Below are positions 5,811 to 22,961 of a stretch of DNA of 64,000 nt, one piece after another. Each line of letters starts with the position of its first letter. The first letter of the stretch is position 1. A model generated the notes under the pieces. The model made no database searches, had not been told where the DNA came from, and saw only the letters and a list, made by a program, of their open reading frames with translations. Origin of the DNA: Candidatus Aminicenantes bacterium (GTDB taxonomy: Bacteria > Acidobacteriota > Aminicenantia > Aminicenantales > JAFGBC01); the NCBI GenBank assembly GCA_022867325.1, contig JALHUR010000084.1:6084-70083 (forward strand), written 5' to 3'. The translations under genes and the position numbers were made by a program.

Positions 5811-5863
5811 ATAAACCTCCTTCTTTGTCGTCTCCAGACCTTTACTCGCGTAAAAGCAAGATA

Positions 5864-5892: not shown

Positions 5893-5920
5893 GCGATATT
5901 CGAATCATTTTTTTCCAAAA

Positions 5921-6315: not shown

Positions 6316-6382
6316 GTCTCCCGGATCGAACTGAAAACTTATTATAGGCCTTCGACTCGTCCTTTTTCAAACACGAAGTCTC

Positions 6383-6410
6383 TTGTCTGGGCCGGGCGAT
6401 TTGATATAAT
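6383..6410 (+). promoter_or_regulatory. putative promoter TTGTCT-16-TATAAT upstream of the ACT-domain gene
   Basis: cTTGTCTgggccgggcgatttgaTATAATactc, then AAGGAGG RBS and GTG start at 6439. Confidence 0.35.
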
Positions 6411-6438
6411 ACTCGCCTGTGAACAAGGAGGCTTGACC

Positions 6439-6834: not shown

Positions 6835-6889
6835 AGACCGCCCCGGAACGCCTCCGGATCTTGAGGACGGAGGGGACGCGAAGAAACCC

Positions 6890-7948
6890 ATGGCGAAGCG
6901 CATCCTGGTTGTGACCTCGGACGTCCCTTTCGTCGAGGGCGGGCACCTGGTCATCGCCCGAGGGACGGTTCGGGCCCTGCGCGAGGCGGGGCACGAAGCG
7001 GAACTCCTCCTGACTCCCCAGAACCGGTTCGGCCGGCAATTGCGGGCCTACGCGGCCACCCGATTCACGGATGTCGGGATGGACGGGCAGGGTCGTTCCA
7101 TCGACCAGGTCATTACCTTCCGTTTCCCGAGCTACGCCGTCCGGCATCCCGCCCACGTCTGCTGGCTGAACCACCGGATGCGGGAATACTACGACCTCTG
7201 GAGCCTCCTTTACAGCCGCCTCGGCTGGAAGGGCCGGATCAAGGAGACGGTCCGCCGGACGCTCATCCGCGCCATCGACAACCATCTTCTTAAGAGGAAC
7301 GTGACGAAGCTGTACACCATATCCAAGACCGTCCAGGCCAGGCTCCGGCGCTGGGGACGGATCCCTTCCGAAGTCCTCTACCCTCCCCCTCCTCAGAGGG
7401 CGTACCGGACCGAGAGCTACGGGAGCTTCATCTTCACGGTGTCGCGTCTCCACAGCCTCAAGCGGATCGACCTGCTCGTCGAGGCCATGGCCCTGGTTCA
7501 CAATCGCGCGTTCAAGGCCATCATCATGGGCGAAGGGCCGGAGCGTTCCAACCTGGCCGCGCTCATCAAGGCCCGTAATCTGGAAGGCCGGATCGTGCTT
7601 CTCGACGAGACCGACGAGGAGACCATGCTGGATCGCTACGCGCGCTGTCGGGCCGTCTTCTTCTCCCCTCTCCAGGAGGACTACGGGTTCGTGACGGCCG
7701 AGGCCTTTGCCTCACGAAAGCCGGTCTTAACGGCCACGGACAGCGGCGGCCCGGTCGAGCTCGTCGAGGACGGCCGGACCGGATTCGTCGTCCCGCCCAA
7801 TCCCGCGGAGATCGCCGCGAAGCTCGACCTCCTGGCCGAGGATAAAAAGCTGGCCGAGAGGCTGGGGGGAAACGGATATGACTTCATCTCCGGGATAACC
7901 TGGGAGAACGCCGTCGCTAAGCTCATCCTCGGGGAAAAAACTCGTTGA
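6890..7948 (+). CDS. glycosyltransferase family 1 (GT4-like)
   Basis: 352 aa with a C-terminal GT1 motif region (...[39 protein letters not shown]). Confidence 0.8.
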
Positions 7949-7973
7949 CAAATCCCCACCCTTTGCCTAAAAT
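7945..7973 (+). promoter_or_regulatory. near-consensus sigma-70 promoter TTGACA-17-TAAAAT upstream of exbD
   Basis: cgTTGACAaatccccaccctttgccTAAAATgtt. GAGGAGG RBS 6 nt before ATG 8013. Confidence 0.5.
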
Positions 7974-8012
7974 GTTACTCTATTGGCGTAGTCCAATATT
8001 GAGGAGGCGAAT

Positions 8013-8405
8013 ATGTCCCATGCCGAACCCAACGTCGTTCCCCTCTGTGACGTACTTCTCGTCCTTCTGATCATCTTCATGGTCATCACGCCCCTTGTCC
8101 AGAAGGGGGTCGACGTGCAATTGCCCGAAACGGTCCAGGGAGGGACAGATCCGCAGAATGTCCAAGGAGTAATCGTCCTGACGGTTAAAAAGGGCAATAC
8201 GGTCATGATCAATCAGCAGCCGATCGAGCTCCAAGCCCTCCAAGAACAGCTCCGCCAGTACTACGCCGCGCGCCAAGACAAGACCATCTTTGTCCGGGCC
8301 GATTCCAAGCTTCCCTTCAGCAAAGTCATGGAGGTCATCGACATCGCCAAGGGTGCCGGCGTCGAAAAGCTGGGGATCATTCCCGAACTCTTCACGGAAG
8401 AATAG
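8013..8405 (+). CDS. exbD: biopolymer transport protein ExbD/TolR (orphan, no adjacent exbB/tonB/tolQ)
   Basis: 130 aa with N-terminal TM (LLVLLIIFMVITPLV) and an ExbD periplasmic domain. Confidence 0.8.
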   Translation: MSHAEPNVVPLCDVLLVLLIIFMVITPLVQKGVDVQLPETVQGGTDPQNVQGVIVLTVKKGNTVMINQQPIELQALQEQLRQYYAARQDKTIFVRADSKLPFSKVMEVIDIAKGAGVEKLGIIPELFTEE

Positions 8406-8439
8406 GCGGCCGTTCTCCTTGTCCCGGAGACCGGACCCG

Positions 8440-8928
8440 ATGCGCGCCGTCCTCTCCATCGGTTTCTTTTTTCTAATCTCTATCGTATCCCTATCGGGAA
8501 CGGCTTATTCCCAAGAAGGCCAGGTTGAAATGGTCGGTCCGTTGACCCTGGAGGAAATCCTGCAGGCCCTTCCCGATTGGCAGGATAGGATGGTCGCCTA
8601 TGCTCCCAAGCTCGGCGCCGTCAACGAGTTGAAAGCCTTCCCGGATTTTGTCCAGGTCGAGGTCTATCTCGGGACCTGGTGCTCGGACAGCCAATCCCAC
8701 GTCACGGCCTTTTTCCAAGTCCTGAACTTTGTCAATTCCCCCCAAATCCAGGTCTCTTACATGGGCGTCCCCAAGGACAAGCCGTCCCGTGAGCCCTATA
8801 TCGCCGGAAAAGATATCGAGAAGCTTCCGACCTTTATCGTCCTGGTCAACGGAATCGTGAAAGGCCGGATCGTGGAAACCCCGACCCGCACGGTCGAGGA
8901 AGACCTCTTGGCCCTTCTCCGCCGCTGA
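8440..8928 (+). CDS. secreted thioredoxin-fold protein with monothiol WCSDS (CxxS) motif
   Basis: Start set at ATG 8440 (MRAVLSIGFFFLISIVSLSGTAYSQ signal peptide). Thioredoxin-like block VEVYLGTWCSDSQSHV. Confidence 0.55.
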   Translation: MRAVLSIGFFFLISIVSLSGTAYSQEGQVEMVGPLTLEEILQALPDWQDRMVAYAPKLGAVNELKAFPDFVQVEVYLGTWCSDSQSHVTAFFQVLNFVNSPQIQVSYMGVPKDKPSREPYIAGKDIEKLPTFIVLVNGIVKGRIVETPTRTVEEDLLALLRR

Positions 8929-8934
8929 AGGCGG

Positions 8935-10092
8935 CTACTTCGCGTCCCGGACGGGGCCGACCACTTCGTGGGCGATGACCAGGCGCTGAATCTCGTTCGT
9001 TCCCTCGTAGATCTGGAGAAGCTTCGCGTCCCGCATCAGCTTCTCCATCGGATAGTCTTTCATATAGCCGTACCCTCCGCAAATTTGAAGGGCTTCGGTC
9101 GTCGTCCGCATGGCCACGTCGCTGGCAAAGCACTTGGCCATGGCCGATTCTTTCCCGCAGGGTTTTCCCCGGTCCATCAGCCAGGCCGCGTTCCAGACGA
9201 GATGGCGGGCCGCGTTGATCTCCATGGCCATCTGGGCGATCTTGAGCTGGTTGGCCTGGAAAAGGGCGATCGCTTTCCCGAACTGGACCCGTTTCTTGGC
9301 GTACTCGACGGCATAGTCGAGCGCCGCCCGGGCGACCCCGACTCCGGCCGCCCCGACCGGGGCCCGTGTGTTGTCGAGCGTCTTCATGGCGACCATGAAT
9401 CCCAAGCCTTCCCGCCCCAGCAGGTTCGCCCGCGGAACCCGAACGTCGTCGAAGAAGACCTCGGCCGTGTTCGAGGCCCGGTGACCCATCTTGTCCTCGA
9501 CCTTTCCGACCGAGACTCCGGGCGTGTCGCGCGGGACGATGACGGCGCTGATTCCCCGCTTGCCCTTGCCGGGCGCGGTCAGGGCGAAGACGACGTAGAG
9601 GTCGGCGATCCCGCCGTTGGTGATGAAGCACTTGGACCCGTTGATGACGAAATCGGAGCCGTCCTTGAGGGCCCGGCTCTTGAGGCCGCCCGCGTCCGAA
9701 CCGGCTTCCCGCTCGGTCAGGCAGAAGGAGGCGAACGTCATCTTGCGGGTCGCGGGCGCCAGGAAGCGCTTTTTCTGTTCGGGCGAACCGAACAGGATGA
9801 GCGGCGTGTAGGCCAGGGAATTGGCCATGATCGTCGTGTACATGCCCGCGCAGCCGGCCGCCAGCTCTTCGCTGACGATGACCGTGTCGACGTTGCCCAG
9901 CTCTCCCCCGCCGTACTCGGCCGGAATGTTGCAGGTCATGAAGCCCGCCTCGAAAGCTTTCTGGAAGACGTCGGTCGGCGTCTCGTGGCCTTGATCGTAC
10001 TTGGCCGCCTTGGGTTTCATCTCTTTTTCGGCGAACTCGCGGGCCATTTCACGAAGGGCCAGCTGTTCTTCGGACAAGCTGAAATCAATCAT
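8935..10092 (-). CDS. acyl-CoA dehydrogenase
   Basis: 385 aa. Full-length ACAD similarity (MIDFSLSEEQLALREMAREFAEKEM ... YEGTNEIQRLVIA). Confidence 0.9.
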   Translation of the reverse strand: MIDFSLSEEQLALREMAREFAEKEMKPKAAKYDQGHETPTDVFQKAFEAGFMTCNIPAEYGGGELGNVDTVIVSEELAAGCAGMYTTIMANSLAYTPLILFGSPEQKKRFLAPATRKMTFASFCLTEREAGSDAGGLKSRALKDGSDFVINGSKCFITNGGIADLYVVFALTAPGKGKRGISAVIVPRDTPGVSVGKVEDKMGHRASNTAEVFFDDVRVPRANLLGREGLGFMVAMKTLDNTRAPVGAAGVGVARAALDYAVEYAKKRVQFGKAIALFQANQLKIAQMAMEINAARHLVWNAAWLMDRGKPCGKESAMAKCFASDVAMRTTTEALQICGGYGYMKDYPMEKLMRDAKLLQIYEGTNEIQRLVIAHEVVGPVRDAK

Positions 10093-12844
10093 TGTCTTTT
10101 CCTCTCCCGGGGCTCGGACGTTCGCCGAGACGTTGACCTTTTATACCCGAATCGAGAATCTCTGTCAAACCCTCGACTCCCCGGCCTGAAGGCCGGGGCT
10201 TGGTCAGGGTTGACCCTGAGCCGCCCTTTTCGTCCCCGCCTTGAAAGGAGGGGCTTAGCGTCGGCGAACGGGTCAATTTGGCCGTTTCCCCGCGCGGCGC
10301 GGCGGGGAGCACGGGCAGGAACCGGACTTCCTCACGGGCCATATCGTAGACCTGGTCCTCGAGGTTCAGGAGCTCGAAGACGACATCCTGGGGCCTGGGC
10401 GCTTTGCCGGGGCCTTGCGGGATGATCAGGACGAGGATCCGGGGAGGGCCCGACATTCGAATTTGGAGTCCGGACTCTCCTCCCTTGTCCTCGAGAAAGC
10501 GCCGGATCAGGGCGGAGAGCCTGTCGGCAAAGGAACCGTCCGGGATTTCTTTCCGGGCGCAGGCCGTCCGGACCGCTTCTTCCGCTTCGGGTCGATCAAG
10601 ATTCAGCGAATAGACCATGGAATGGACCGCCCGGGATAAAGGCGGCTCCGAATCGGCTAAAAGCCTAAGCTCAAGAAAACGGACGCCCTCCGGGGCCGAT
10701 GCGTTGAGGCGAACGATCGTCTCTTGGGCGGAGAGGGCGGTCCTGGATTTGAGCTCCAGGCAATCCTTTTTGGCCTCCATCCCCAGGGGAAGCGCGGGGA
10801 GAAACGAGACGATCATTTTGGGATGGAACCCTTCGGACATGGCGACCGAAAGGCCGGCCCTCCGGAATATTCTCTGGAGGACGTTGATGAGATCGAGATG
10901 GGACATGAAACGCGCCCGTCCTCCCTTTGAGTAAAAAAGACGGTAGCGAAGAGGCTGGGCGGAATCGCGGCCGAGACGAGGGAAAGGCTCTTCTCGATCG
11001 CCGGCCTCCCCTTCCTCGGAGGACCTGTCCAGGAAAGCGGGCAAGTCGCAGCCCCGGCAGTCGGCGCAAGTCCTTTCCAGACAGGACGGGGTCCTCTCCT
11101 CCGCCATGGCCCTGTCGAGCTCGCCTTGCAGGAATTCTTTCCTGACGCCGGTGTCGATATGGTCCCAGGGCAATAAGGCGTCGCGGTCCAGGGCGCCGAG
11201 ATAATCTCCTTTCTCGATGCCCGACGACATGAAGGCCTGCTCCCAACAGCGGGCCTGGAAACGGTCCTTCCAGCCGTCAAAACGGGCTCCATTCTCCCAG
11301 GCCGCCCTGAGAAGACGGGAGACCGCCCGATCTCCTCGCGAGAGTACCGCTTCCAGCACGGATTTCTCAACCGGATGGTCCTTGAAATCGATGAAACGGA
11401 ACCTTTTCAAACGATCCTTGAGGAAAGCCTGTTTTTCAAGGAGAGTCTCCGGTCCGTCCATGGCCTGCCATTGGAAGGGCGTATGCGGTTTAGGTATGAA
11501 TGAGGAGACGCTGAGGTTGAAGCGCGGCGGCGAATGGAGGATCGATCGGCCTTCCTCGACGAGGGCCTTGACGAGATCGACGATTGCAACCAGGTCTTCG
11601 TCCCGCTCCGTCGGCAGCCCGATCATGAAATAGAGCTTGAGAAGCCTCCAGCCATGGCGGAAAGCGCTCCGGGCCGCTTCGAAGATGTCGGCATCGTCGA
11701 GGTGCTTGTTAATGACCCGGCGCAACCTCTCGGTCCCGGCCTCGGGGACCAGGGTCAGGCCGGTCTTACGGACCGTGAGGATGCTCCGGACGATTTCGGT
11801 CGAGACGCCCTTGGGCCTCAATGACGACAGGGAGAGTGAAATCTTATCGGGCTCGAGCTCGGCCATGGCTTTCTTGATCAAACCGTCGAGGCCGGGATAG
11901 TCGCTCAGGGAAAGGGCGGTCAGGGACGCGTCTTCGTAGCCTGTCGCCCGCAGGCTTTTTTTCATCGTATTGAGGATGAACGCCCGGCTTTTGACCCGGA
12001 AGGGATGGTAGAGGGTTGTGGCCTGGCAGAACCTGCATTTATGGGGGCAGCCGCGGGCCGCCTCGACCGCGACGCGGTCGAATACGGCTTTAATGTTGGG
12101 GACGACGATGTCCTCCGGGAAATAAGACTCCCGGAACGACCGAACGATTCTTTTCTTTATGCGGGAAGGTTCCCCCGGCCCGGCCTTAACGGCCAGGAGT
12201 CTTGAGCGGTCCGGCCGATAGGTCTCGTAGAGGGACGGGACATAAACGCCGGGAATCCCGGCCAAATCCTTGAGAATCCGGCCCCTGTCTTGGGCGGCCC
12301 CTTTGAGCTCGATCAGCCGTTCGACGATTTCCGGGAATGCCTCCTCGCCGTCGCCGATCAGGAAGAGGTCGAAGAAATCCGCGACGGGCTCGGGATTGAA
12401 GGCGGACGGGCCGCCGGCGATGACGAGAGGATGGTTTCCGGTCCGGTTCGCCGCGAGAAGGGGGATCCGGCCCAAATCGAGCATGGTCAGGATGTTCGTC
12501 GCGTTGAGCTCGTAGAGGAGCGAAAAGCCCACGATGTCGAACCGGCCGAGCGGAGTGGCCGTCTCCAGCGAGAAGAGCGGAAGATCCCGCGCCCGGAGCT
12601 CGGCCTCGCAATCCGGCCAGGGCGCGAAGACGCGTTCGGCCTGGATATGGGGACGGTTGTTGAGGATGGCGTAGAGGATCTTCTGCCCCAGATACGACAT
12701 GCCGATTTCATAAACGTCGGGAAAGGCGAGCGCGACCCTGGCCCTGACGGCGGCCGGATCCTTGCGGCGGGCGTTCCATTCCCCTCCCGTGTAGCGGGCC
12801 GGCTTCTCGACCCGGCGCAGGACCCGGTCCAGGCCGTCAGACAT
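10085..12844 (-). CDS. B12-binding radical SAM protein (TIGR03960 family) fused to DUF2344 (TIGR03936)
   Basis: 919 aa with radical SAM Cys cluster AARGCPHKCRFCQ, followed by a DUF2344-like C-terminal half. The last about 65 codons read through repeat copy A1. 8-nt overlaps with rodA upstream and ACAD downstream. Confidence 0.8.
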   Translation of the reverse strand: MSDGLDRVLRRVEKPARYTGGEWNARRKDPAAVRARVALAFPDVYEIGMSYLGQKILYAILNNRPHIQAERVFAPWPDCEAELRARDLPLFSLETATPLGRFDIVGFSLLYELNATNILTMLDLGRIPLLAANRTGNHPLVIAGGPSAFNPEPVADFFDLFLIGDGEEAFPEIVERLIELKGAAQDRGRILKDLAGIPGVYVPSLYETYRPDRSRLLAVKAGPGEPSRIKKRIVRSFRESYFPEDIVVPNIKAVFDRVAVEAARGCPHKCRFCQATTLYHPFRVKSRAFILNTMKKSLRATGYEDASLTALSLSDYPGLDGLIKKAMAELEPDKISLSLSSLRPKGVSTEIVRSILTVRKTGLTLVPEAGTERLRRVINKHLDDADIFEAARSAFRHGWRLLKLYFMIGLPTERDEDLVAIVDLVKALVEEGRSILHSPPRFNLSVSSFIPKPHTPFQWQAMDGPETLLEKQAFLKDRLKRFRFIDFKDHPVEKSVLEAVLSRGDRAVSRLLRAAWENGARFDGWKDRFQARCWEQAFMSSGIEKGDYLGALDRDALLPWDHIDTGVRKEFLQGELDRAMAEERTPSCLERTCADCRGCDLPAFLDRSSEEGEAGDREEPFPRLGRDSAQPLRYRLFYSKGGRARFMSHLDLINVLQRIFRRAGLSVAMSEGFHPKMIVSFLPALPLGMEAKKDCLELKSRTALSAQETIVRLNASAPEGVRFLELRLLADSEPPLSRAVHSMVYSLNLDRPEAEEAVRTACARKEIPDGSFADRLSALIRRFLEDKGGESGLQIRMSGPPRILVLIIPQGPGKAPRPQDVVFELLNLEDQVYDMAREEVRFLPVLPAAPRGETAKLTRSPTLSPSFQGGDEKGGSGSTLTKPRPSGRGVEGLTEILDSGIKGQRLGERPSPGRGKDND
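10133..10168 (-). promoter_or_regulatory. putative internal promoter TTGACA-17-TATAAA for the acyl-CoA dehydrogenase gene; the -35 lies at the edge of repeat A1
   Basis: Minus strand: ggtTTGACAgagattctcgattcgggTATAAAagg, about 40 nt upstream of ACAD ATG at 10092. Confidence 0.35.
10181..10290 (-). repeat. palindromic mosaic repeat, family A copy 1 (minus orientation)
   Basis: Minus strand reads ttgacccgttcgccgacgcta...ggcggggacgaaaag...gctcagggtcaaccctga...ccccggccttcaggccgggg...gggtttgaca. Homologous to copies at 28880-29109 and 45287-45350. Confidence 0.7.
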
Positions 12845-13928
12845 TGGCGAAGCGCCTCATCTTGACGTTGAGGATCAATCCCACGGCCAGGAAGGTGGCC
12901 GTCAGGGACGAGCCTCCGTAGCTCAGGAGCGGAAGGGGAATTCCCGCGATGGGCAGGACGCCGATGATCATCAGGATGTTGATGAAGAATTGAAAGGCGA
13001 TGAAGGAGGAGGCCAGGAACGAGATATAAACGCCGGCCCTGTCCCGGGACTGTCCGACCGACTTGAACAGCCGGCCCAGGAACAAGTAATAGAGGATCAG
13101 GGCGGCCAGACTCCCGGCGAACCCGAATTCTTCGCCGATGACCGAAAAGATGAAATCGGTATGGCGGGCCGGCAGGAAGCGAAGCTGACTCTGGCTTCCT
13201 TTCTTGAAGCCTTTTCCTAAGAGCCCGCCGGACCCGATGGCGATCTTGGATTGGCGGATTTGATAGCCCGCCCCCTGCGTATCCTGACCCGGGGAGAGGA
13301 ACGTCATGATCCGCTTCTTCTGGTAGTCTTTGAGAGTCAAGTTCCAGGTCACCAGGCTCAGGAGAACTATGATGATGAGGAGGACGACGAGCGTCTTCTT
13401 GGTCCGGCCGGCCAGGATCAGGGCGGCCGCCAGGATCGGGATATAGCAAACGGCCGTGGCCAGGTCGGGCTGGAGGGCCACCAGGACGAACGGAACGAAG
13501 ACGGCGCCGGCGCCGGTTAAGGCGATTGTCCGCGTCACGAATGTTTTTTTGGCGGCCCCGAACAGCTGGGCCAGGACCAAGATCAGGACGACCTTAAGGA
13601 TCTCGGACGGCTGGATTTGGAAGAACGGCATCCGGATCCAGGACTTGGTCCCGGCCGTGGTCCGGGCGAACGGGATCATGGCGGCCAAGACGGCCACGAT
13701 CAAAACATAGACGGGCAGGGCGAAGGTCATCAGCGTTTTATAGTCGACGGCCAGGATGAAAAAGAGCATAACCAGGCTGAAGGCCGCGAAGGTGAATTGC
13801 TTCAGGAAATAGGCGCCGCCGGCTTGGTGAGAAGAGCTGTAGATGGCGGCGATGCCCAAGGCCGTATTCAGGAGCAGAAGAACGATCAACCTCCAGTCGA
13901 TTTCCTGGAAATGCTGTCTGTCAATCAT
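12837..13928 (-). CDS. rodA: rod shape-determining protein RodA (SEDS family)
   Basis: 363 aa, multi-TM, FtsW/RodA family. Confidence 0.9.
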   Translation of the reverse strand: MIDRQHFQEIDWRLIVLLLLNTALGIAAIYSSSHQAGGAYFLKQFTFAAFSLVMLFFILAVDYKTLMTFALPVYVLIVAVLAAMIPFARTTAGTKSWIRMPFFQIQPSEILKVVLILVLAQLFGAAKKTFVTRTIALTGAGAVFVPFVLVALQPDLATAVCYIPILAAALILAGRTKKTLVVLLIIIVLLSLVTWNLTLKDYQKKRIMTFLSPGQDTQGAGYQIRQSKIAIGSGGLLGKGFKKGSQSQLRFLPARHTDFIFSVIGEEFGFAGSLAALILYYLFLGRLFKSVGQSRDRAGVYISFLASSFIAFQFFINILMIIGVLPIAGIPLPLLSYGGSSLTATFLAVGLILNVKMRRFANV

Positions 13929-15732
13929 TCCTGGACCTACAGAGCTCGAACAGGGGTTTGGCCAGCGGGGCGGCGACCGCTCCGCCCATTCCGCCGTACT
14001 CGACGAGCACGGTCACGACGTAGCGGGACTTCTGGCGCGGGGCGAAGCCCGTGAACCAGGAATGGGTCTTGATCGTCCTCTTGAGCTTCTCCGCCTTCTC
14101 GGTGCTGATGATCTGAGTCGATCCCGTCTTGCCGCAGACGTCGAAGCCGTCGACCCGGGCCGCCCGCCCCGTCCCCTCCTCGTTCACCGAACGGTACATA
14201 CCCTCGATAACTTTCTCAAAACTGGAGGGCCGGATATCGACCCGGCCGGCCTGCTTGAAGGGATCGGCCGATGTTTTGGCCGTTTCGTCGACGGGCGCCA
14301 AAAAAAGACGGGGGACGACGGGCTCCCCGCGATTGGCGATGAGCGCCGTGTAAGCGGCGACCTGGAGTGGAGTCACAATCAGGGGGCCCTGTCCGATGGC
14401 CACCGAGATCGTCTCGCCCGCGAACCAGCCCGCCTTGTGGGTCCTTTTTTTCCAGTCCGGATGGGGTACCAATCCCTCTTTCTCACCCGGGAGATCGATT
14501 CCCGTCTTCCGTCCCAGGCCCATTTTTTCGGCCGTCTTGGCGATGTCCTCGATCCCCATTCGGCGGCCTATGTTGTAGAAATAGATGTTGCACGAGTAGC
14601 TGAGCGCATTGGGCAAGTTCAGGGAGCCGTGGCCCGCCTCGAACCAGCAGGCGAACGGATGACCGTAGATCTCGATCTTGCCGCCGCAATAATAAGTCGT
14701 GTCCTCGCCGATCAGGCCGGATTCGAGGGCGCCGATGGCCATGACCGGCTTGAAGACCGAGCCCGGGCTGTAAAGGCCCCGGATGGCCCGGTTCTCGAGC
14801 GGGTAGTTGGGGCTTCGGATCAAGGACAGCCATTCATCGACCGTGAATCGGTTGATGAACTTATTGGGATCGAAGGTCGGAAAACTCGCCAAAGCCAGGA
14901 CCTCGCCGTATTCAGCGTCGAGGACGACGATGGCCCCTTCCTTGCCCAGGAGAAGCTCCTCGGCCCTTTTCTGAAGGCTGATGTCGATCGAAAGCGTCAG
15001 GTTCTCCCCCTGTTTGGGCTCCTCCCTGGCCTCCTCTCCCTTGGGCTTTCCCACGCTGTCGACGATCTCCAGGATGCGGCCCTTCTTCCCGACCAGACGC
15101 GCTTCGTACTGCCGTTCAATCCCGTTCCTGCCGACAAGGTCTCCGGCCTGATGATCGCGAAAGCGGTTGGACCTCAGCTCTTCCAGCGTCAATTCCTGTA
15201 GATAGCCGAGGACATGGGCTGCAGCGCTTCCCTGAGGATAGATGCGCTTGGGTTCGGCCGTGACCAGGAGTTCGGGAAACTCGTACAGGCGCGCCTAGAT
15301 TCGCGAGACCTCCTCCCTGGTCAGGTTGTCCTTGACCGGGACCGGCTTATAGCCCGGCAACGAACCGAAGCGCCCGATGCGCGCCCGGATCGTCTCGACC
15401 GGAAGCCCGAGCAGGTCTCCGATCCGCCGGACGGAGGCATCGAGGTCGCCGCTATTGTCGCGGACGATCGAAGCCGTGAATGAGGCGGCGTTGTCGGCGA
15501 GCTTGACGCCGTTCCTATCCAGGATCAGTCCGCGCGGGGCGGCCAGAACGACCTCGCGGGTTCGATTGGACTCGGACAGGGCCCAGTACTTGGCATGATC
15601 CAAGATCTGAATTTTCCAGTAAAGAACGAGCACGGCCCCGAACAGGATCTTGACGATCGCAAATACGGCCTTCGACCGCCGGCAGACGAGCGTCAGGTCC
15701 TCGTAGATGCGTTCCGTATCCTGGGGGCTCAC
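13921..15732 (-). CDS. mrdA: penicillin-binding protein 2 (transpeptidase), interrupted by a single in-frame TAG at 15295-15297
   Basis: ORFs 15295..15732 (PBP dimerisation N-terminus) and 13921..15192 (transpeptidase domain) are in the same frame, 604 codons in total. The 34 codons between them translate coherently (ARLYEFPELLVTAEPKRIYPQGSAAAHVLGYLQE). The only disruption is one TAG. Confidence 0.8.
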
Positions 15733-16220
15733 GCTTGGGCGCGCCTTTCCCGACGGCGGCGGATGAAGTTAAAAACCAGACACCCCCCCAGGGCCGTATT
15801 GAGGGGTTGGAGAAAGAGGAGGCCGCCCGCCGTATCGGCTCGATGGCCGTAGATGAGGCTCGATAGAACCATCCAGACGGCGAGATCCGCGGCGGCGGCC
15901 GTGAACAGGAATAGAAACAGCCTGCGTAGAGGCGTCACGTCGAACTTCTGCGAAAAACTCCCCGCCAGGTAGCCGACCAGGGTCAGGGCGATCCCCGAGC
16001 TGCCCAGGACGCTCCGCGAGAAGGCGTCCTGGACGAGCCCGCAGGCCATGCCCATGACGGCCCCGGCCGCTTCGCCGCCCGTCATCGCGAAATGGAGGAC
16101 GACAAGCAGGAAGACGTTGAAGACAAGAAGTCCTGCCGGCGCGATCCTTCCCGCCAGCGTATAGACGGCGAACCCGAACAGAATCCCGAGCAGGGCTCTG
16201 GCGATATCCCGGGTTGTCAT
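15729..16220 (-). CDS. mreD: rod shape-determining protein MreD
   Basis: Start ATG 16220 overlaps the mreC TGA (ATGA). 163 aa polytopic membrane protein in mreBCD order. Confidence 0.7.
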   Translation of the reverse strand: MTTRDIARALLGILFGFAVYTLAGRIAPAGLLVFNVFLLVVLHFAMTGGEAAGAVMGMACGLVQDAFSRSVLGSSGIALTLVGYLAGSFSQKFDVTPLRRLFLFLFTAAAADLAVWMVLSSLIYGHRADTAGGLLFLQPLNTALGGCLVFNFIRRRRERRAQA

Positions 16221-17068
16221 CGCCCCCCCTCGGGGAAATAATCGCGGGCCGGACGCTTGAGGATGGCGACCTGGCCGAAGCCGGCGATGTCGAAGAAGGG
16301 CTTGACTCGAACCTTTTGAAAAAGGGTCCCGTCCCGCTTGACGTTGATAACTGTTCCCACCCGAATGCCTGGAGGATAGAGTCCGTCCAGCCCCGAGGTC
16401 AGAATCCGGTCGCCCGCCGCTAGGGTCGGGCCCGAGTCGAGCAGGTACTTGAGCTCGCACGTCCCGTCGCCCAGACCCTTCAGGATGACGACCGCGGGGG
16501 GCGACCCGGCCAGGACGCTGACGCCGCATTCCGAATCCGTGATGAGCTGGATATGGGCTTCGCGGCCGGCCACCGTTCCATAGACGCGCCCGATCAGACA
16601 ACCGTTTCTGTCCAGGACCGGCATGTCTTTGCGGACGCCGTGGACCGTTCCCCGGTCGATGACGGCCGAACGGTGGATATTGGTCGCGTCCAATCCGATG
16701 ACCGAGGCGATCTCCAGGTCGTCCCGCCAGCGGGCGGTCGCGTCGCGGATGTCCTTCTCGGATTTCAACTCACGGAGCCAGTTGCGGAGAAATTCGTTCT
16801 CTTCCCGGAGGACGAACAACTCGCGATGGAGAGCCTGGTTTTGGCGCTGGACGTGGCGGAGATAGGCGTATTGAATCCAGAGTCCGCGGACGCCTCCGAC
16901 GGCGCTGGCCAGCCCGTGCTGGACCGGGGACAGGACGGAGAAGATGATCCTGTTCAGCAAGGACACCTTGGCGCCGACCGGGACCTGAAGCGAGATAAGG
17001 AGGAATTGAACGACCAGGAGGACGACGAGCAGCCTGGGCTTTTTCCTGACTCTCAGTTCAAGGGGCAT
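16217..17068 (-). CDS. mreC: rod shape-determining protein MreC
   Basis: 283 aa with N-terminal TM and coiled coil, MreC-like. Confidence 0.8.
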   Translation of the reverse strand: MPLELRVRKKPRLLVVLLVVQFLLISLQVPVGAKVSLLNRIIFSVLSPVQHGLASAVGGVRGLWIQYAYLRHVQRQNQALHRELFVLREENEFLRNWLRELKSEKDIRDATARWRDDLEIASVIGLDATNIHRSAVIDRGTVHGVRKDMPVLDRNGCLIGRVYGTVAGREAHIQLITDSECGVSVLAGSPPAVVILKGLGDGTCELKYLLDSGPTLAAGDRILTSGLDGLYPPGIRVGTVINVKRDGTLFQKVRVKPFFDIAGFGQVAILKRPARDYFPEGGR

Positions 17069-17113
17069 GCCTCGTTCACGCCGCTTCCGGGGCCCGTTCC
17101 TAAGCCCCGCGGA

Positions 17114-18145
17114 CTATGACATCGCGATCTTCTTGAGGAGATCGAGGTTGTCCAGCATCTTCCCGGCGCCGAGAACGACCGTCGTCAGCGGATTCTCTGT
17201 GATGAAAACGGGGAGTTGGGTCTCTTCGCGGATCCGTTTGTCCAGGTTCTTGAGCAGGGCCCCGCCGCCGGTCAGGATGATGCCGTGATCGATGATATCG
17301 GCCGAAAGCTCGGGGGGCGTCTTTTCCAGGGCGATCCGGATGGCGTTGATGATGGCGGCGATGACGTCCTCGAGGGCTTCCCGGATCTCCTGGTCGTCGG
17401 CGACGATGGTCTTGGGGATGCCCTCGCGCAGGTCCCGGCCCGTGATCTCCATGGTCAAAGGCTGGTCGAGCGGGTAGGCGGAGCCGATCTGGATCTTGAC
17501 CAGCTCGGCCGTCCGTTCCCCGATCAGGAGGTTGTACTTCTTCTTGAGGAATTGGATGATGGCCTCGTCCATCTCGTTCCCGGCGACCCGGATCGAATGG
17601 TTGAAGACGATGCCGTTGAGGGAGATTATGGCGATGTCCGTCGTCCCGCCCCCGATATCGACGACCATGTTTCCGGTCGGTTCCGAAATGGGGAGGTCGG
17701 CCCCGACGGCCGCCGACATGGGCTGCTCGACCAGGTAGACCTCGGAGGCCTTGGCCCTCATCGCCACGTCCTTGACGGCGCGCCGCTCGACCTGGGTGAT
17801 GCCGGTCGGAATCCCGATGACGATCCGGGGCCGGAGCAGGAATCCCCGGTTGTTGGTCGCCTGCTTGATGAAATAATCCAGCATCTTCTCGGCGATCTCG
17901 AAGTCGGCGATGACGCCGTCCCGCATCGGCCGGATCGAGAGGATGTTGGCCGGCGTCTTGCCCAGCATCTCCTTGGCCCGCCGGCCGACGGCTTCGATCT
18001 TGCCGGTCAGCTTGTTGACGACGACGATCGAAGGCTCCTGGACGATGATCCCTTTTCCCTTCAGGTAGACGAGGGTGTTGGACGTACCCAGGTCTATGGC
18101 CAAGTCGCAAAATAGCCTATTCTTGAACCAGCCGATGACGCTCAT
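17114..18145 (-). CDS. mreB: rod shape-determining protein MreB (actin homolog)
   Basis: 343 aa: DLGTSNTLVY..., MreB signature throughout. Confidence 0.95.
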   Translation of the reverse strand: MSVIGWFKNRLFCDLAIDLGTSNTLVYLKGKGIIVQEPSIVVVNKLTGKIEAVGRRAKEMLGKTPANILSIRPMRDGVIADFEIAEKMLDYFIKQATNNRGFLLRPRIVIGIPTGITQVERRAVKDVAMRAKASEVYLVEQPMSAAVGADLPISEPTGNMVVDIGGGTTDIAIISLNGIVFNHSIRVAGNEMDEAIIQFLKKKYNLLIGERTAELVKIQIGSAYPLDQPLTMEITGRDLREGIPKTIVADDQEIREALEDVIAAIINAIRIALEKTPPELSADIIDHGIILTGGGALLKNLDKRIREETQLPVFITENPLTTVVLGAGKMLDNLDLLKKIAMS

Positions 18146-18305
18146 GTTAAACCTGCCGTCCGTACCCGACTATTACTAACACAATTCGTCCCGGGACGCA
18201 ATCGGAAACCGGACGCGCGGCCGGGGGGTAGAGGGGTTGACACGTTCGCCGAGCCTCAGTGTTACCCCTGGACAAGCCTTGGCACTTATGCCGGCGGTCG
18301 AGGGG

Positions 18306-18335
18306 TTGACTTTGGACAGGGAAATTGAATATAAA
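18306..18335 (+). promoter_or_regulatory. putative sigma-70 promoter TTGACT-18-TATAAA for the OPT transporter gene
   Basis: ggggTTGACTttggacagggaaattgaaTATAAAttatg. AAAGGAG RBS before ATG 18367. Confidence 0.4.
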
Positions 18336-18366
18336 TTATGCATTACGTCCCGCAAAGGAGTATCGG

Positions 18367-20412
18367 ATGAAGCATCAGCCCTACGTTCCCGAGAAAACCG
18401 AGATGAGGGAGTTCACCCTGCGGGCCCTCCTGATCGGATTGATCATGACGGTCATCCTGGGCGCCGCCAACGCCTATCTCGGTCTCCGGGCCGGGATGAC
18501 GATCGCGGCGACCTACCCGGCCGCCGTCATCGGCATGGCCGTTCTCAGGATCTTCAAGGGATCGATCCTTGAAGAAAACTTAGCGCGGACGGTCGGCTCG
18601 ATCGGCGAGTCCGTGGCCGCAGGCGCCATCTTCACCATACCCGCCTTCCTGATCGCCCGCGTCTGGGTGAAATTCAACACCGTCGAGGCCTACCTCAAGA
18701 CGTCCGCCCTCCTGTTCGTGGGCGGCGTCCTCGGAATTCTGTTCGTCACCTTCCTGCGCCGGGTCATGGTCAGCGATCCCGACCTGACCTTCCCGGAGTC
18801 GGTCGCCGCCGCCGAGATCCACAAGGCCGGCCAGAAAGGCAGCGCCGGGGCCAAGCACCTTTTCCAGGCGATGGGCCTGGGAGCCGTCTTCTACGCCCTG
18901 GGCGTCGCCCAGCTCTATGCCCAGAGCAAGGATTTCATCATCAAGATCGGAACGATCGCATCGAGCTTCGTGCGCTTCGGAACCGAACAGAACTCGCCCA
19001 AGATCGATGCGGGCGGCACGGTCGCCGTCTCCGGGCCCGGCATTTACCCGGCCTATCTCGGAGTCGGCTACATCATCGGCCCGCGGCTGGCTTCCCTCAA
19101 CTTCGCGGGCGGCGTGCTGGCCTGGGGTCTGTTCGCCCCCCTCCTCATGTTCGTCCTCGGCCCGCAGCTCATCGCCAAGTTCTACGGCCCGGGCATCGCC
19201 ATGGCCGACGTCGCCTGGCCGGACCTCGTGACCAACGTCTGGAAATTCATCATCCGTCCGATCGCGGTCGGCGGCATGCTCGTCGGCGCCGGCTACACCC
19301 TGTACCGGATGAGGAAAAACCTGGCGGCGGGCATGAAGCGATCGTTGGGCGACGTCAAGAAGGCCGCCGGGCAGGCCGAAACGACCTCCCGGCTCGAAAA
19401 AGACCTTAACATCAAGGTCGTCCTGGGCGGGCTGGGCCTGACGTTCGTCCTCATGATTCTCGTCTACCGGGTTTTCGCCGGCGCGTTCGGTCCGGCCGTT
19501 ATCGCGGCCATCGTCATGGCCTTGGCCGGATTCTTCTTCGCCGCCGTCTCGGGGAACCTGGTCGGCACGATCGGCTCTTCGAACAATCCGATCTCGGGTC
19601 TTACTTTATCGACGCTCATCATCGCCGCCCTCCTCATGGTCGTTGTCGGAGCTTCCGGAACGAGCGGAGTCTCCGCCGTCCTGGGCGTGGCCGCGGTCGT
19701 CTGCGTCTCCTCGGCCGTCGCCGGCGAGATGCTCCAAGACCTCAAAGTCGGGCATATCCTGGGCGGCACGCCCTGGAAGATGCAGGTCGGCAATATTTTC
19801 GGCATCCTTTTCGCTTCCCTGGTCCTCTATTTTCCCTTGATGCTCCTGATCGGCGCCTTCGAGCTCGGAAGCAAGGATCTAGCCGCTCCCCAGGCGGGAT
19901 TGATGGCGGCCCTCGCCCAGGGCATTGTCGGCGGCGAGATGGCCTGGCCGCTCGTCATCGTCGGCATGCTGATGGGCTTCGCCTTTATCCTGATCCAGGT
20001 TCGATCGCCGATGCTGGTCGCGGTCGGGATGTACCTCCCGCTCGAGACTACCTTCGCCATTTTCGTCGGCGGCATGTTCAAAGGGATCGTCGACAGGCTC
20101 GCCGCCAAGAGGGGGCTCAATGCGGCCCAGAAGGCGCGGACCGAAAACATCGGCATCCTCCTTGCGGCCGGACTGATCGCGGGCGAAAGCCTGACCGGGC
20201 TGCTGCGCGCCCTCTGGAAGTTCCTCTTCCTCCAAAACGTCCTCAAGTTCGACATCCCCAAGATCTTCAAGGGCACGAGCTATTTCGGCGGCTTCGACCT
20301 GTACTTCGGCGGGCTCGCCGTCCTCATCCTGATCGCGCTCTATCTCATCTACAAGCCGCTCCGGAACGCCGGGGCCGCCGACGAGCCGCCGCCGCCGTCG
20401 GCCATCATCTGA
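18367..20412 (+). CDS. OPT-family oligopeptide transporter
   Basis: Start ATG 18367 (MKHQPYVPEK...) after AAAGGAG. 681 aa polytopic membrane protein with OPT family similarity. Confidence 0.85.
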   Translation: MKHQPYVPEKTEMREFTLRALLIGLIMTVILGAANAYLGLRAGMTIAATYPAAVIGMAVLRIFKGSILEENLARTVGSIGESVAAGAIFTIPAFLIARVWVKFNTVEAYLKTSALLFVGGVLGILFVTFLRRVMVSDPDLTFPESVAAAEIHKAGQKGSAGAKHLFQAMGLGAVFYALGVAQLYAQSKDFIIKIGTIASSFVRFGTEQNSPKIDAGGTVAVSGPGIYPAYLGVGYIIGPRLASLNFAGGVLAWGLFAPLLMFVLGPQLIAKFYGPGIAMADVAWPDLVTNVWKFIIRPIAVGGMLVGAGYTLYRMRKNLAAGMKRSLGDVKKAAGQAETTSRLEKDLNIKVVLGGLGLTFVLMILVYRVFAGAFGPAVIAAIVMALAGFFFAAVSGNLVGTIGSSNNPISGLTLSTLIIAALLMVVVGASGTSGVSAVLGVAAVVCVSSAVAGEMLQDLKVGHILGGTPWKMQVGNIFGILFASLVLYFPLMLLIGAFELGSKDLAAPQAGLMAALAQGIVGGEMAWPLVIVGMLMGFAFILIQVRSPMLVAVGMYLPLETTFAIFVGGMFKGIVDRLAAKRGLNAAQKARTENIGILLAAGLIAGESLTGLLRALWKFLFLQNVLKFDIPKIFKGTSYFGGFDLYFGGLAVLILIALYLIYKPLRNAGAADEPPPPSAII

Positions 20413-20436
20413 TCCGATTTCGGTTTGTCGCTTCCA

Positions 20437-20470
20437 CGACCGGCCCTCCTCAGGGAGGGCCGGCTTTTTC
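20437..20470 (+). terminator. rho-independent terminator after the OPT gene
   Basis: gaccggccctcc tcag ggagggccggc followed by ttttt. Confidence 0.6.
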
Positions 20471-20502
20471 GTTGATTCGGGATCGCGCCGGCCCGCCCGG
20501 GT

Positions 20503-20531
20503 TTGACCGCCTTCAGGGCATCGTCTAAAAT
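20503..20531 (+). promoter_or_regulatory. putative promoter TTGACC-17-TAAAAT for def-fmt
   Basis: cccgggtTTGACCgccttcagggcatcgtcTAAAATag, 19 nt before def ATG. Confidence 0.45.
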
Positions 20532-20549
20532 AGTGTTGAGAAGACAGTC

Positions 20550-21065
20550 ATGGCCGTACGAAAAATTCTGACGATCGGACATCCGATCCTGACCAAGGTC
20601 GCCGAACCCATCACCGAGATCGACGATGAAATTCGCGCCCTGGCCGCGGATATGGTCGAAACCATGCACAAGGCGCCCGGTCTCGGCCTGGCCGCGCCCC
20701 AGGTCGACGTCTCCAAACGCCTGATCACGGTCGACCCTTCGATCGGCGAGAATCCCGAAGAGCTCCTTGTCTTGATCAACCCCGAAATCACGGACCAAGA
20801 AGGCCAGGTGACCTGCGAGGAGGGATGCCTTTCCGTCCCCGACGTTTCCGAGCCGGTGACCCGTCCGACCCGCGTCGTCGTCTCCTTCCTCGACCTCAAA
20901 GGCGTTCCCTGCAGCGTCGAGGGCTTCGACCTTATGGCCCGGGCGCTCTGCCACGAGATCGATCATCTCAACGGCAAGTTGTTCATCGAAAGGCTCTCCC
21001 CGCTCAAGCGGGCCCTGATCAAGAAGAAGCTCAAGAAGAAGCGGGACAAAGACGGAGAGAGATGA
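20550..21065 (+). CDS. def: peptide deformylase
   Basis: 171 aa with motifs GLGLAAPQ, EGCLS, HEIDHLNG. Confidence 0.9.
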   Translation: MAVRKILTIGHPILTKVAEPITEIDDEIRALAADMVETMHKAPGLGLAAPQVDVSKRLITVDPSIGENPEELLVLINPEITDQEGQVTCEEGCLSVPDVSEPVTRPTRVVVSFLDLKGVPCSVEGFDLMARALCHEIDHLNGKLFIERLSPLKRALIKKKLKKKRDKDGER

Positions 21066-21994
21066 GAATTGTTTTTTTCGGAAGTCCCGTTTCCGCGCTT
21101 CCCGCCCTGAAGAAGCTCGTCGCTTCGTCCCACCAGGTGACGCTCGTCGTCACCCAGCCCGACCGGGCTTCGGGAAGGGGGCGCAGAGAGACGGCCTGCC
21201 CGGTCAAAGCCTTCGCCCGTGAGCGCGGGCTTCCCGTCTACCAGCCCGAGCGGATCAGGAAAGACCCATCGGCGCTCGACAGGCTCCGGGACGCCCGTCC
21301 CGACTTGAACGTCATCGTCGCTTTCGGCCAGATCATGCCCGCCTCCGTCATCTACCTGCCGCCCTTCCATTCTCTCAACCTCCACTTCTCGCTTCTGCCC
21401 AAGTACCGCGGCGCCTCGCCGGTCCAATGGGCCATTCTCAGCGGTGAGGCCGTGACCGGGATCACGATTTTCGAGCTTGACGAGAAGATGGATGAAGGCC
21501 CCATCCTGGCTCAACGGGAGGTCCCGATCGCCCCGGGTGAAAAATCCTTCGAGCTCGAAGCCCATTTGGCCGAAATCGGGGCCGACCTCCTGCTCAAGAC
21601 CCTGGAGGAGCTGGGCCGAATCCGGCCCGCCGCCCAGGACCATGCTCTCGCCAGCTACGCCCCGAAAATCAAGAAGGAAGACGGCCGGATCGACTGGACG
21701 AACGACGCCGCGACCGTGGACAGGCGCGTCAGGGCTTTCGCCGGATGGCCGTCGGCCCATGCCCGGTTCAAGGAGCGGCGTCTGATCATCCATGACGGCC
21801 GGCCGCTCGGCGCCTTCGCGCGCGAAGGCCCCCCCGGAGAAGTCCTCCGTGTCTCGGAGGAAGGGATCGAGGTCCGCTGCGGCGGCGGCTCCTCTTATCT
21901 CATCAGGCGCCTCCAGGGCGAGAACGGTCGGGAGATGGACGCAGCCCCTTTCGCCAGGGGACACCGAATCTCGACGGGGTTGAAGCTCGACTAA
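21062..21994 (+). CDS. fmt: methionyl-tRNA formyltransferase
   Basis: ATG 21062 overlaps the def TGA (ATGA). MRIVFFGSP... with formyltransferase N- and C-domains. Confidence 0.9.
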   Translation: MRIVFFGSPVSALPALKKLVASSHQVTLVVTQPDRASGRGRRETACPVKAFARERGLPVYQPERIRKDPSALDRLRDARPDLNVIVAFGQIMPASVIYLPPFHSLNLHFSLLPKYRGASPVQWAILSGEAVTGITIFELDEKMDEGPILAQREVPIAPGEKSFELEAHLAEIGADLLLKTLEELGRIRPAAQDHALASYAPKIKKEDGRIDWTNDAATVDRRVRAFAGWPSAHARFKERRLIIHDGRPLGAFAREGPPGEVLRVSEEGIEVRCGGGSSYLIRRLQGENGREMDAAPFARGHRISTGLKLD

Positions 21995-22037
21995 AACGAT
22001 TTCTGAGGAAAGGGCGGGGATAAAGGACCGGAGGATG

Positions 22038-22961
22038 CTATTCTTCGTAAATATAGATAATCGGGTTTTGAGCCTTGTCGTTGACGCGGACTTCATAATG
22101 GAGATGGGGTCCTGTCGCTTTCCCCGATTTGCCGACCAGCCCGATGATGTCGCCCCTCTTGACCTTCTGGCCGGGACGGACCAGCCATTTGTCCAGGTGG
22201 AAAAAATGCGTCGTGACGCCCCAACCGTGGCTGATGACGACGACCTTGCCGGTTATCCGATCCGCTTTTGTTTCCACGACGATTCCGTCCGCCGACGCAA
22301 TGATCTGGTTGCCGTAGCTCGTGGCGATGTCGATGCCGTTGTGGAATTGCCGTTTCTGGGTAAAGGGGTCTGTCCTGTAACCGAACCCCCCCGCGACCCA
22401 TCCGACCGTAGGCCAAATCGTCGGCGTCGAGGCTAACTGGACCGACTTGTTCTCGGCGATATCGCTCAGCATCATCAGGTTCTTTTGAAGGCTGTCGGCC
22501 TTCCGGCTTAAATCTTGTACATGAGAAAGGCTTAGCTCTTGAGGAGGCGGAGCCTCGGAGGGACTCGACGCAAGATCCTGGGCGGGATCGTCGCCTCCGC
22601 CCAAGCCGGTCTCGGTGATTTTTTCGGTGTCCTTGAGACCCACGTAGACGTTTAGCTTTTTGACGTAGGACTCCATCCTATCGATGGTCGTCTGGAGGCC
22701 CCTGACCTGGTTCTCGTAGGTCGCCATGGTTTCTTCCTGCCATCGCGTTTGCTTCTGGAGCTCTCGGTATTTGACTCTGGTGACCGTCATCGTAAAATAA
22801 TCGACCAGGAAAGCGATGATAGCCAAGCTGAAGACAATCGCGCTTCCCAACAAGATCCGGGACGCCCGTTGGGACAGAGTGAAACGCCGGGTGTTCGATT
22901 TGGAATGGGGGACGATGAAGACTGACAGAGAACCCTTGGATTTAGTCATCGGCTTCCCCAT
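22038..22961 (-). CDS. M23 family metallopeptidase with N-terminal TM and coiled coil
   Basis: C-terminal LytM/M23 domain (HNGIDIATSYGNQIIASADGIVV...GPHLHYEV). Exact start uncertain (MGKPM or MTKSK). Confidence 0.8.
   Translation of the reverse strand: MGKPMTKSKGSLSVFIVPHSKSNTRRFTLSQRASRILLGSAIVFSLAIIAFLVDYFTMTVTRVKYRELQKQTRWQEETMATYENQVRGLQTTIDRMESYVKKLNVYVGLKDTEKITETGLGGGDDPAQDLASSPSEAPPPQELSLSHVQDLSRKADSLQKNLMMLSDIAENKSVQLASTPTIWPTVGWVAGGFGYRTDPFTQKRQFHNGIDIATSYGNQIIASADGIVVETKADRITGKVVVISHGWGVTTHFFHLDKWLVRPGQKVKRGDIIGLVGKSGKATGPHLHYEVRVNDKAQNPIIYIYEE

What the first reader, a model, noticed from the sequence alone, without database searches (positions are those of the whole stretch)
15295..15297. 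Single in-frame TAG inside an otherwise intact PBP2 (mrdA) gene
Two adjacent ORFs, 15295..15732 and 13921..15192, are in the same frame and together give a full-length 603-codon PBP2. The 34 codons between them translate into sensible protein. The only defect is one TAG. mrdA sits in an apparently functional mreBCD-mrdA-rodA operon with tight start/stop overlaps. Together with the TGA in ileS and the TAG in the DUF4835-like gene, that makes three substitution-type nonsense codons in housekeeping or envelope genes within 64 kb. A frameshift-prone assembly would be expected to produce indels rather than this. Possible explanations: (a) sequencing or consensus error; (b) recent pseudogenisation with a second copy elsewhere; (c) programmed stop-codon suppression or recoding in this lineage. 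TAG is also used as a genuine terminator nearby (3341-3343), so a wholesale reassignment is unlikely, but context-dependent read-through is not excluded.
Basis: seen in the sequence. Interest (0 to 1): 0.7.

Follow-up and report, generated by a model that had tools for sequence, protein, structure and literature searches.

The report
Private nonsense substitution in MAG mrdA
The in-frame TAG in the cell-wall gene mrdA is real in this sequence, but it is a one-base change (GAG to TAG) found only in this metagenome-assembled genome, so it is an ordinary lesion or consensus error and not a sign of an unusual genetic code.

Summary
Codon 146 of a 603-codon PBP2/mrdA gene (13921..15732, minus strand) is TAG (15295..15297), and it splits the Pfam PBP_dimer domain. 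The window comes from a GenBank MAG of Candidatus Aminicenantes. The protein numbering of that record leaves no protein for mrdA or ileS, which fits pseudogene annotation.

Nine assemblies of the same or a very close species (96.5-99% nucleotide identity) carry GAG and an intact 603-codon ORF. Glu occupies the site in 115 of 120 homologous proteins and in 72 of 80 related genomes read at DNA level, with no stop in any.

The two companion stops are also private single-base changes, each at a different amino acid. TAT(Tyr) became TAG at 34256..34258, and TGC (an invariant Cys) became TGA in ileS at 55510..55512.

TAG and TGA end 8 and 32 of the window's 53 genes. The window has no tRNA gene and no Rfam match, and the sequence after each stop shows no significant structure. 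Recoding is therefore not supported.

The lesion is either a consensus or minor-allele artefact of the MAG (my preference, because a null ileS should be lethal) or a very recent real null allele. Only the reads can decide. Interest is low.

The parts
15295..15297 (-). In-frame TAG, codon 146 of mrdA. It derives from GAG (Glu) by G>T on the coding strand (C>A on the + strand at 15297).
   Evidence: Searches show the stop. Searches show GAG in L001-L008. One search finds Glu in 115/120 homologues. One search finds Glu in 72/80 GTDB genomes and no stop.
13921..15732 (-). mrdA (PBP2, class B penicillin-binding protein), 603 codons plus a TGA terminator, with one lesion only. The SxxK (SVFK), SxN (SCN) and KTG motifs are readable in the translation.
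   Evidence: One search finds a 95% identical full-length 603-aa homologue, P0001.
15729..18145 (-). mreB (17114..18145), mreC (16217..17068) and mreD (15729..16220), all intact, lying upstream in the same operon.
   Evidence: GenBank proteins MCJ7586942, MCJ7586941 and MCJ7586940.
12837..13928 (-). rodA, intact. Its start overlaps the end of mrdA by 8 nt.
   Evidence: GenBank protein MCJ7586939.
55510..55512 (-). Companion lesion: in-frame TGA at codon 478 of ileS (54166..56943). It derives from TGC (Cys of the CxxC motif). A second private C>A lies 6 nt downstream, at 55504.
   Evidence: Cys in 77/77 related loci and in 73/73 of the more distant relatives aligned.
34256..34258 (+). Companion lesion: in-frame TAG at codon 58 of a 436-codon gene (34085..35395) for a protein of unknown family with a hydrophobic N-terminus. 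It derives from TAT (Tyr).
   Evidence: GenBank splits it into MCJ7586953 (57 aa) and MCJ7586954 (342 aa).

Best explanation
The TAG is not decoded. It is a single-base substitution, GAG (Glu146) to TAG, carried only by this MAG contig. It is one of three private nonsense substitutions in the window: mrdA GAG>TAG, the 436-codon gene TAT>TAG and ileS TGC>TGA.

Shown: each stop is one base away from the sense codon that every conspecific assembly carries. The sites are conserved in the wider families. The same codons act as normal terminators in the window.

Inferred: the stops most likely do not represent the genome of the viable majority population. They would be errors of the deposited consensus, or a minority or defective allele picked up by the assembler. 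The reasons are that a truncated IleRS lacks the KMSKS region and should be lethal, and that mrdA carries no second lesion in an otherwise constrained operon.
For: Codon state in relatives:
- L001 (96.5% nt identity over mrdA) and L002-L008 (98-99% over the aligned blocks) have GAG at codon 146 and an uninterrupted 603-codon ORF.
- With L001 as outgroup the change is derived on the window's branch.
- The site is Glu in 115/120 homologous proteins. Read at DNA level, which avoids gene-caller bias, it is Glu in 72/80 GTDB genomes (codons GAA 38, GAG 34) with no stop.
- The other TAG replaces Tyr (TAT in all relatives). The TGA replaces a Cys that is invariant in 77/77 loci.

Code usage and recoding signals:
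- Terminators of the 53 genes are TGA 32, TAA 13 and TAG 8. mreB ends in TAG and mrdA itself in TGA.
- No tRNA or tmRNA gene and no Rfam family.
- Folding of the 63 nt from each stop is no better than shuffles (z -0.46, -0.43, -0.93).

State of the rest of the window:
- No frameshift was found in coding sequence over the roughly 43 kb (86..22508 and 27752..48833) checked for indels against siblings L002, L010 and L011. Indels lie in intergenic DNA.
- 626 private differences over 51.7 kb give omega about 0.30 for transitions and for transversions, so the genes are under selection.
- About 15 nonsense changes would be expected if the differences were neutral. Three are seen.

Public annotation: GenBank protein numbers run RodA MCJ7586939 then MreD MCJ7586940, and lspA MCJ7586967 (inferred from the run of numbers) then MCJ7586968. 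Locus tags still count ileS as a locus. So mrdA and ileS have no protein in the record, which fits pseudogene annotation.

Rate argument: two independent Logan contigs of the same strain (run SRR19116065) differ from the window at 9 of 4128 positions. Seven of these are unique to the window, including three within 6 nt at 36476..36481. That rate, about 1.7 per kb, together with the roughly 3% of coding substitutions that create stops, would give about three stops in 64 kb.
Against: - No reads were available, so error is not demonstrated.
- Most private differences look like real evolution. The ratio of nonsynonymous to synonymous changes on the window's branch (19:21) equals that on the sibling branch (24:24).
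- Most of the seven window-unique sites against the Logan contigs are synonymous. That fits natural microdiversity better than random error.
- A substitution error rate near 1e-3 would be unusually high for a short-read assembly.
- The same strain carries at least one gene that looks truly degraded. The saccharopine-dehydrogenase-like remnant at 57015..57512 has two deletions, so real inactivating lesions do occur in it.
- The Logan contigs do not reach any of the three stops.
Confidence: 0.6

Rival explanations
1. The alleles are real and very recent null alleles. This strain, or a defective sub-population or relic DNA that dominated the sample, truly carries nonsense mutations in mrdA, ileS and the 436-codon gene. 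Viability would rest on a second gene copy elsewhere or on low-level natural read-through.
For: - The stops sit among 626 private differences that behave like genuine divergence (omega about 0.3).
- The saccharopine-dehydrogenase-like gene of the same strain is degraded by two clean deletions of 404 and 489 nt without flanking repeats.
- Terminal branches normally carry an excess of deleterious variants. The window's IleRS and PBP2 have several residues not seen in any relative at conserved columns, such as IleRS S727C, K27N and K135Q.
- Window proteins score slightly lower than sibling proteins against four of six Pfam domain profiles.
Against: - The ileS stop removes an invariant Cys and everything downstream, including the KMSKS region. 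That should be lethal for a single-copy gene.
- Each disrupted gene has one lesion only and is otherwise conserved.
- No coding frameshifts were found, although decay usually produces them as well.
- None of 9 (mrdA), 7 (436-codon gene) or 2 (ileS) conspecific or near-conspecific assemblies shares a stop.
Confidence: 0.3
2. Programmed recoding or suppression. In this lineage TAG and/or TGA are read through by a suppressor tRNA, or TGA in ileS encodes selenocysteine, so the genes are functional as written.
For: All three stops are substitution-type, in frame, in otherwise intact genes, and are each followed by G. The ileS TGA replaces a Cys, the classical Sec/Cys relationship.
Against: - Strains 98-99% identical have sense codons at all three sites.
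- The two TAGs replace different amino acids, Glu and Tyr.
- TAG and TGA terminate 40 of 53 genes.
- No tRNA gene and no Rfam SECIS or other element.
- The hairpin after the ileS TGA is no more stable than shuffles (z -0.93). Within the 48 nt compared, the sequence that forms it is unchanged in the siblings, which encode Cys there.
- A full-text search found no report linking Aminicenantes to stop-codon recoding.
Confidence: 0.03
3. Functional split gene. Translation reinitiates after the stop, for example at TTG 15192 in mrdA or GTG 55491 in ileS, and the two fragments assemble into an active protein.
For: In-frame start codons exist downstream of the stops. From my own knowledge, E. coli IleRS fragments have been reported to reassemble when co-expressed. 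I did not check this here.
Against: - The downstream PBP2 fragment would lack its N-terminal membrane anchor and half of the PBP_dimer domain.
- The IleRS split removes a conserved Cys of the CxxC motif.
- No relative is split.
Confidence: 0.02

Closest known systems
Internal-stop pseudogenes as flagged by NCBI PGAP in metagenome-assembled genomes
   Same: There is a single in-frame stop in a gene whose homologues are full length, and no protein record is issued. mrdA has no accession between MCJ7586939 and MCJ7586940, and ileS has none before MCJ7586968.
   Different: I could not read the GenBank feature table, so 'pseudogene' is inferred from the accession and locus-tag numbering. Whether the lesion is biological or an assembly error is unknown.
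Stop-codon reassignment in uncultivated bacteria (TGA as Gly in Gracilibacteria/SR1, TGA as Trp in Mollicutes)
   Same: In-frame stop codons occur at conserved positions of housekeeping genes.
   Different: Here the codons are still the normal terminators. The in-frame cases are private to one assembly. They align with three different amino acids, and there are only three in 53 genes.
Selenocysteine insertion at UGA (bacterial SECIS-dependent)
   Same: The ileS UGA replaces a Cys codon.
   Different: There is no significant downstream stem-loop and no Rfam hit. All 77 relatives have Cys. The change is a single C>A in an otherwise near-identical neighbourhood.

Membership tests
PBP2 / MrdA (class B penicillin-binding protein of the elongasome) | PBP_dimer (pedestal) domain followed by a transpeptidase domain | tested here: met
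   PF03717 is split 3-90 / 93-177 across the stop, and PF00905 covers profile positions 1-298 of 299 with E 2e-68.
PBP2 / MrdA (class B penicillin-binding protein of the elongasome) | Active-site motifs SxxK, SxN and KTG | tested here: met
   SVFK, SCN and KTG can be read in the translation. These motif definitions come from my own knowledge.
PBP2 / MrdA (class B penicillin-binding protein of the elongasome) | Position in an mreBCD-mrdA-rodA cluster | tested here: met
   Pfam hits for MreB, MreC, MreD and FTSW_RODA_SPOVE flank the gene. The conspecific contigs have the same order.
PBP2 / MrdA (class B penicillin-binding protein of the elongasome) | Uninterrupted reading frame | tested here: not met
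   TAG at codon 146.
Stop-codon reassignment (alternative genetic code) | The codon is not used, or hardly used, as a terminator | tested here: not met
   TAG ends 8 and TGA 32 of 53 genes.
Stop-codon reassignment (alternative genetic code) | In-frame occurrences align consistently with one amino acid | tested here: not met
   TAG aligns with Glu in mrdA and with Tyr in the 436-codon gene.
Stop-codon reassignment (alternative genetic code) | In-frame occurrences are shared by close relatives | tested here: not met
   All conspecific assemblies have GAG, TAT and TGC at the three sites.
Stop-codon reassignment (alternative genetic code) | A cognate suppressor tRNA, or loss or alteration of a release factor | not testable with these tools
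   The window has no tRNA gene. The rest of the MAG could not be reached. Its exact 28-mer around the stop (the variable base wild-carded) is absent from the GTDB representative genomes.
Selenoprotein (UGA = Sec) | A SECIS stem-loop just downstream of the UGA | tested here: not met
   Folding gives z -0.93 against shuffles. There is no Rfam hit. Within the 48 nt compared, the sequence that forms the hairpin is unchanged in the Cys-encoding siblings.
Selenoprotein (UGA = Sec) | selA, selB, selC and selD present in the genome | not testable with these tools
   Only this window of the MAG is available.
Decaying pseudogene | Several independent lesions or relaxed constraint within the gene | tested here: not met
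   mrdA has one lesion and no frameshift. Nonsynonymous to synonymous counts on the window's branch match the sibling branch.

The most novel reading that the evidence does not exclude
This Aminicenantes strain tolerates nonsense codons in essential genes because it carries suppressor activity, either amber and opal suppressor tRNAs or unusually leaky termination at stop-G contexts. The three stops would then be real, translated through, and the first trace of an incipient loosening of the code in a high-GC free-living bacterium.
Probability: 0.03. Interest if true: 0.75.

Novelty: already known. Interest (0 to 1): 0.1.

Why it matters
It matters mainly as a caution. Substitution-type in-frame stops in housekeeping genes of a single MAG look like recoding. 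Comparison with conspecific assemblies shows they are private one-base lesions.

If the reads were to confirm all three stops at high frequency, the case would become more interesting, because it would mean a viable population with a nonsense codon in ileS. As it stands it adds nothing to the biology of PBP2 or to genetic-code evolution.

Tried and rejected
- Independent confirmation of the stop alleles. I made exact look-ups of the fragments a gene caller would produce: PBP2 145 aa and 423 aa, IleRS 477 aa and 441 aa, and the 57-aa and 342-aa pieces of the third gene. I also looked up 'revertant' full-length proteins with E146, C478 or Y58. Only the two GenBank pieces of the third gene are on record. 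Nothing came from another assembly.
- Same-strain Logan contigs from SRR19116065. Two were found, covering 16082..17284 and 34477..37401. Neither reaches a stop; the nearer one ends 219 nt short.
- The rest of the MAG. The exact 28-mer around the stop (the variable base wild-carded) is absent from the GTDB representative genomes. A suppressor tRNA, sel or pyl genes, or a second mrdA or ileS therefore could not be sought.
- A mutational signature such as 8-oxoG. The spectrum of the 626 private differences is unremarkable: transitions to transversions 1.5, and C>A 78 against T>G 66. All three stops being transversions is expected, because most stop-creating changes are transversions.
- Unusual clustering of private differences around the stops. 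It is no stronger than elsewhere in the window.
- Literature. Nothing links Aminicenantes to stop-codon recoding. A search for the sibling sample identifiers led nowhere.
- An early six-frame scan for split ORFs was too noisy in this 61% GC sequence, because antisense frames stay open. I replaced it with an explicit map of 53 genes.

Full report
**Observation**

The minus strand reads CGA ATC TAG GCG CGC, with the TAG at 15297..15295. Translating 13921..15732 gives 604 codons with a single internal stop, at codon 146, and a terminal TGA. The upstream piece (145 aa) matches Pfam PBP_dimer profile positions 3-90. The downstream piece matches positions 93-177 and a complete Transpeptidase domain. 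This is therefore one PBP2 gene cut by one codon, not two ORFs that happen to share a frame.

mreB, mreC and mreD lie upstream and rodA downstream. Neighbouring genes overlap by 4, 4 and 8 nt. In a map of 53 genes these are the only three internal stops.

**Source of the window**

Exact protein look-ups place the window on a 74,763-bp contig of a GenBank MAG named Candidatus Aminicenantes bacterium. Its proteins run from MCJ7586928 to MCJ7586968, with locus tags MUQ00_.

- RodA is MCJ7586939 and MreD is MCJ7586940, so mrdA between them has no protein.
- lgt is MCJ7586966 and the gene after ileS is MCJ7586968, which leaves MCJ7586967 for lspA and none for ileS.
- Locus tags run from MUQ00_03525 to MUQ00_03600, a span that leaves room for ileS as a locus.

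I infer that the public record already treats both genes as pseudogenes. The third gene is deposited as two hypothetical proteins of 57 and 342 aa.

**What relatives carry at the site**

A protein search found a 603-aa homologue at 95% identity and many Aminicenantes PBP2 proteins. Glu occupies the stop position in 115 of 120 of them.

Protein databases cannot contain interrupted genes, so I also read the DNA. In 80 GTDB representative genomes the codon is GAA (38), GAG (34), AAA or AAG (7) or GAC (1), and never a stop.

More telling are assemblies of the same or a very close species. Seven contigs from other ENA and JGI samples (L002-L008, 98-99% nucleotide identity over the aligned blocks) and one more distant contig (L001, 96.5% over mrdA) all have GAG and an intact 603-codon ORF in the same operon. 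With L001 as outgroup the G>T change is derived on the window's own branch.

**The companion stops**

The 436-codon gene has TAT (Tyr) at codon 58 in five conspecific contigs, in a more divergent Logan contig, and Tyr in seven database proteins.

The ileS codon is TGC in the two conspecific contigs. The residue is Cys, the first of a CxxC motif, in 77 of 77 related loci.

The three stops are therefore three independent one-base changes from three different amino acids: Glu, Tyr and Cys.

**Tests for recoding**

- TGA, TAA and TAG terminate 32, 13 and 8 of the 53 genes. mreB ends in TAG, and mrdA and ileS end in TGA.
- The window has no tRNA or tmRNA gene and no Rfam family at gathering threshold.
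- The 63 nt from each stop fold no better than dinucleotide shuffles, with z -0.46, -0.43 and -0.93.
- Within the 48 nt compared, the sequence that forms the hairpin after the ileS TGA is unchanged in the siblings that encode Cys.
- A full-text search found no report of recoding in this phylum.

A code change or programmed read-through would have to have arisen within about 1% sequence divergence, and would have to insert different residues at the same codon. I reject it, leaving a residual probability of about 3%.

**Error or real allele**

The window differs from its siblings at 626 private positions in 51.7 kb, or 1.2%. These behave like real divergence. Omega is about 0.30 for both transitions and transversions. 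On the polarised 3.7 kb the window's branch has 19 nonsynonymous and 21 synonymous changes, against 24 and 24 on the sibling branch.

The indels found against siblings L002, L010 and L011, over about 43 kb (86..22508 and 27752..48833), are all intergenic. If the private differences were neutral, about 15 would be nonsense. Three are.

Arguments for an artefact:
- A null ileS should be lethal.
- Each hit gene has exactly one lesion.
- No other assembly shares any of the stops.
- Two independently assembled Logan contigs of the same strain (SRR19116065) differ from the window at 9 of 4128 positions. Seven are unique to the window, including three within 6 nt. That rate would yield about three stops in 64 kb.

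Arguments for real alleles:
- Most of those window-unique sites are synonymous.
- The strain carries a gene that looks truly degraded. The saccharopine-dehydrogenase-like gene at 57015..57512 lacks 404 and 489 nt that the siblings have, with clean junctions and no flanking repeats.
- The window's IleRS and PBP2 carry several residues unseen in relatives at conserved columns.

The Logan contigs stop short of all three sites, and no fragment or revertant protein is on record elsewhere. The question therefore stays open. I put about 0.6 on artefact or minor allele and about 0.3 on a real null allele.

**Comparison with what is known**

The gene is a normal PBP2 by domains, motifs and context, and fails only the test of an open frame. 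The situation is that of an internal-stop pseudogene in a MAG, which the public annotation already reflects. It meets none of the testable criteria for stop-codon reassignment or for a selenoprotein.

**Verdict**

The recoding interpretation is not supported. This is an ordinary lesion of a known kind, and interest is low. Read mapping at three positions would settle whether it is an error.

Noticed in passing
window 57015..57512 (+): A 165-aa 'hypothetical protein' (MCJ7586968) is the remnant of a 382-aa saccharopine-dehydrogenase-like gene. Relative to conspecific contigs the window lacks 404 nt (promoter region plus the first 54 codons, junction 57022|57023) and an in-frame 489 nt (junction 57493|57494). 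Neither deletion has flanking repeats.
   Followed up: partly
window 55504 and 55510 (ileS); IleRS residues 27, 135 and 727: The ileS stop has a second private C>A 6 nt downstream (CGC>CGA, synonymous). The window's IleRS also carries N27, Q135 and C727, residues seen in none of 73 relatives at well-conserved columns.
   Followed up: partly
Its intact homologue gives only a sub-threshold LptD_2 hit (17.4 bits). Codons 56-58 and 131-155 of the window share states with a more divergent lineage (L178), which suggests a recombination mosaic.
   Followed up: partly
window 10169..10271 (-), radical SAM gene 10085..12844: The window has a 108-nt in-frame insertion in the low-complexity C-terminal tail relative to all conspecific contigs (919 against 883 aa). 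It is not a tandem duplication.
   Followed up: partly
window 22038..22961 (-): The M23 peptidase gene has an intact ORF and a complete Pfam domain, but there is no GenBank protein number for it between fmt (MCJ7586945) and fabG (MCJ7586946). Its 3' part is hypervariable, with 55 private differences in 500 nt.
   Followed up: no
window 18215..18219, 29089..29094, 33976..33987, 41687..41774: Several intergenic stretches differ in length from the conspecific contigs by about 90-230 nt. One example is about 225 nt missing upstream of mreB. Poly-C tracts near 4302 and 28760 are one base shorter in the window.
   Followed up: no
window 36476..36481 (+), histidine kinase gene: Three substitutions within 6 nt (CGG..G to AAG..A) are unique to the window compared with both the siblings and an independent Logan contig of the same strain. 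They could be a local consensus error or a multi-nucleotide variant.
   Followed up: no
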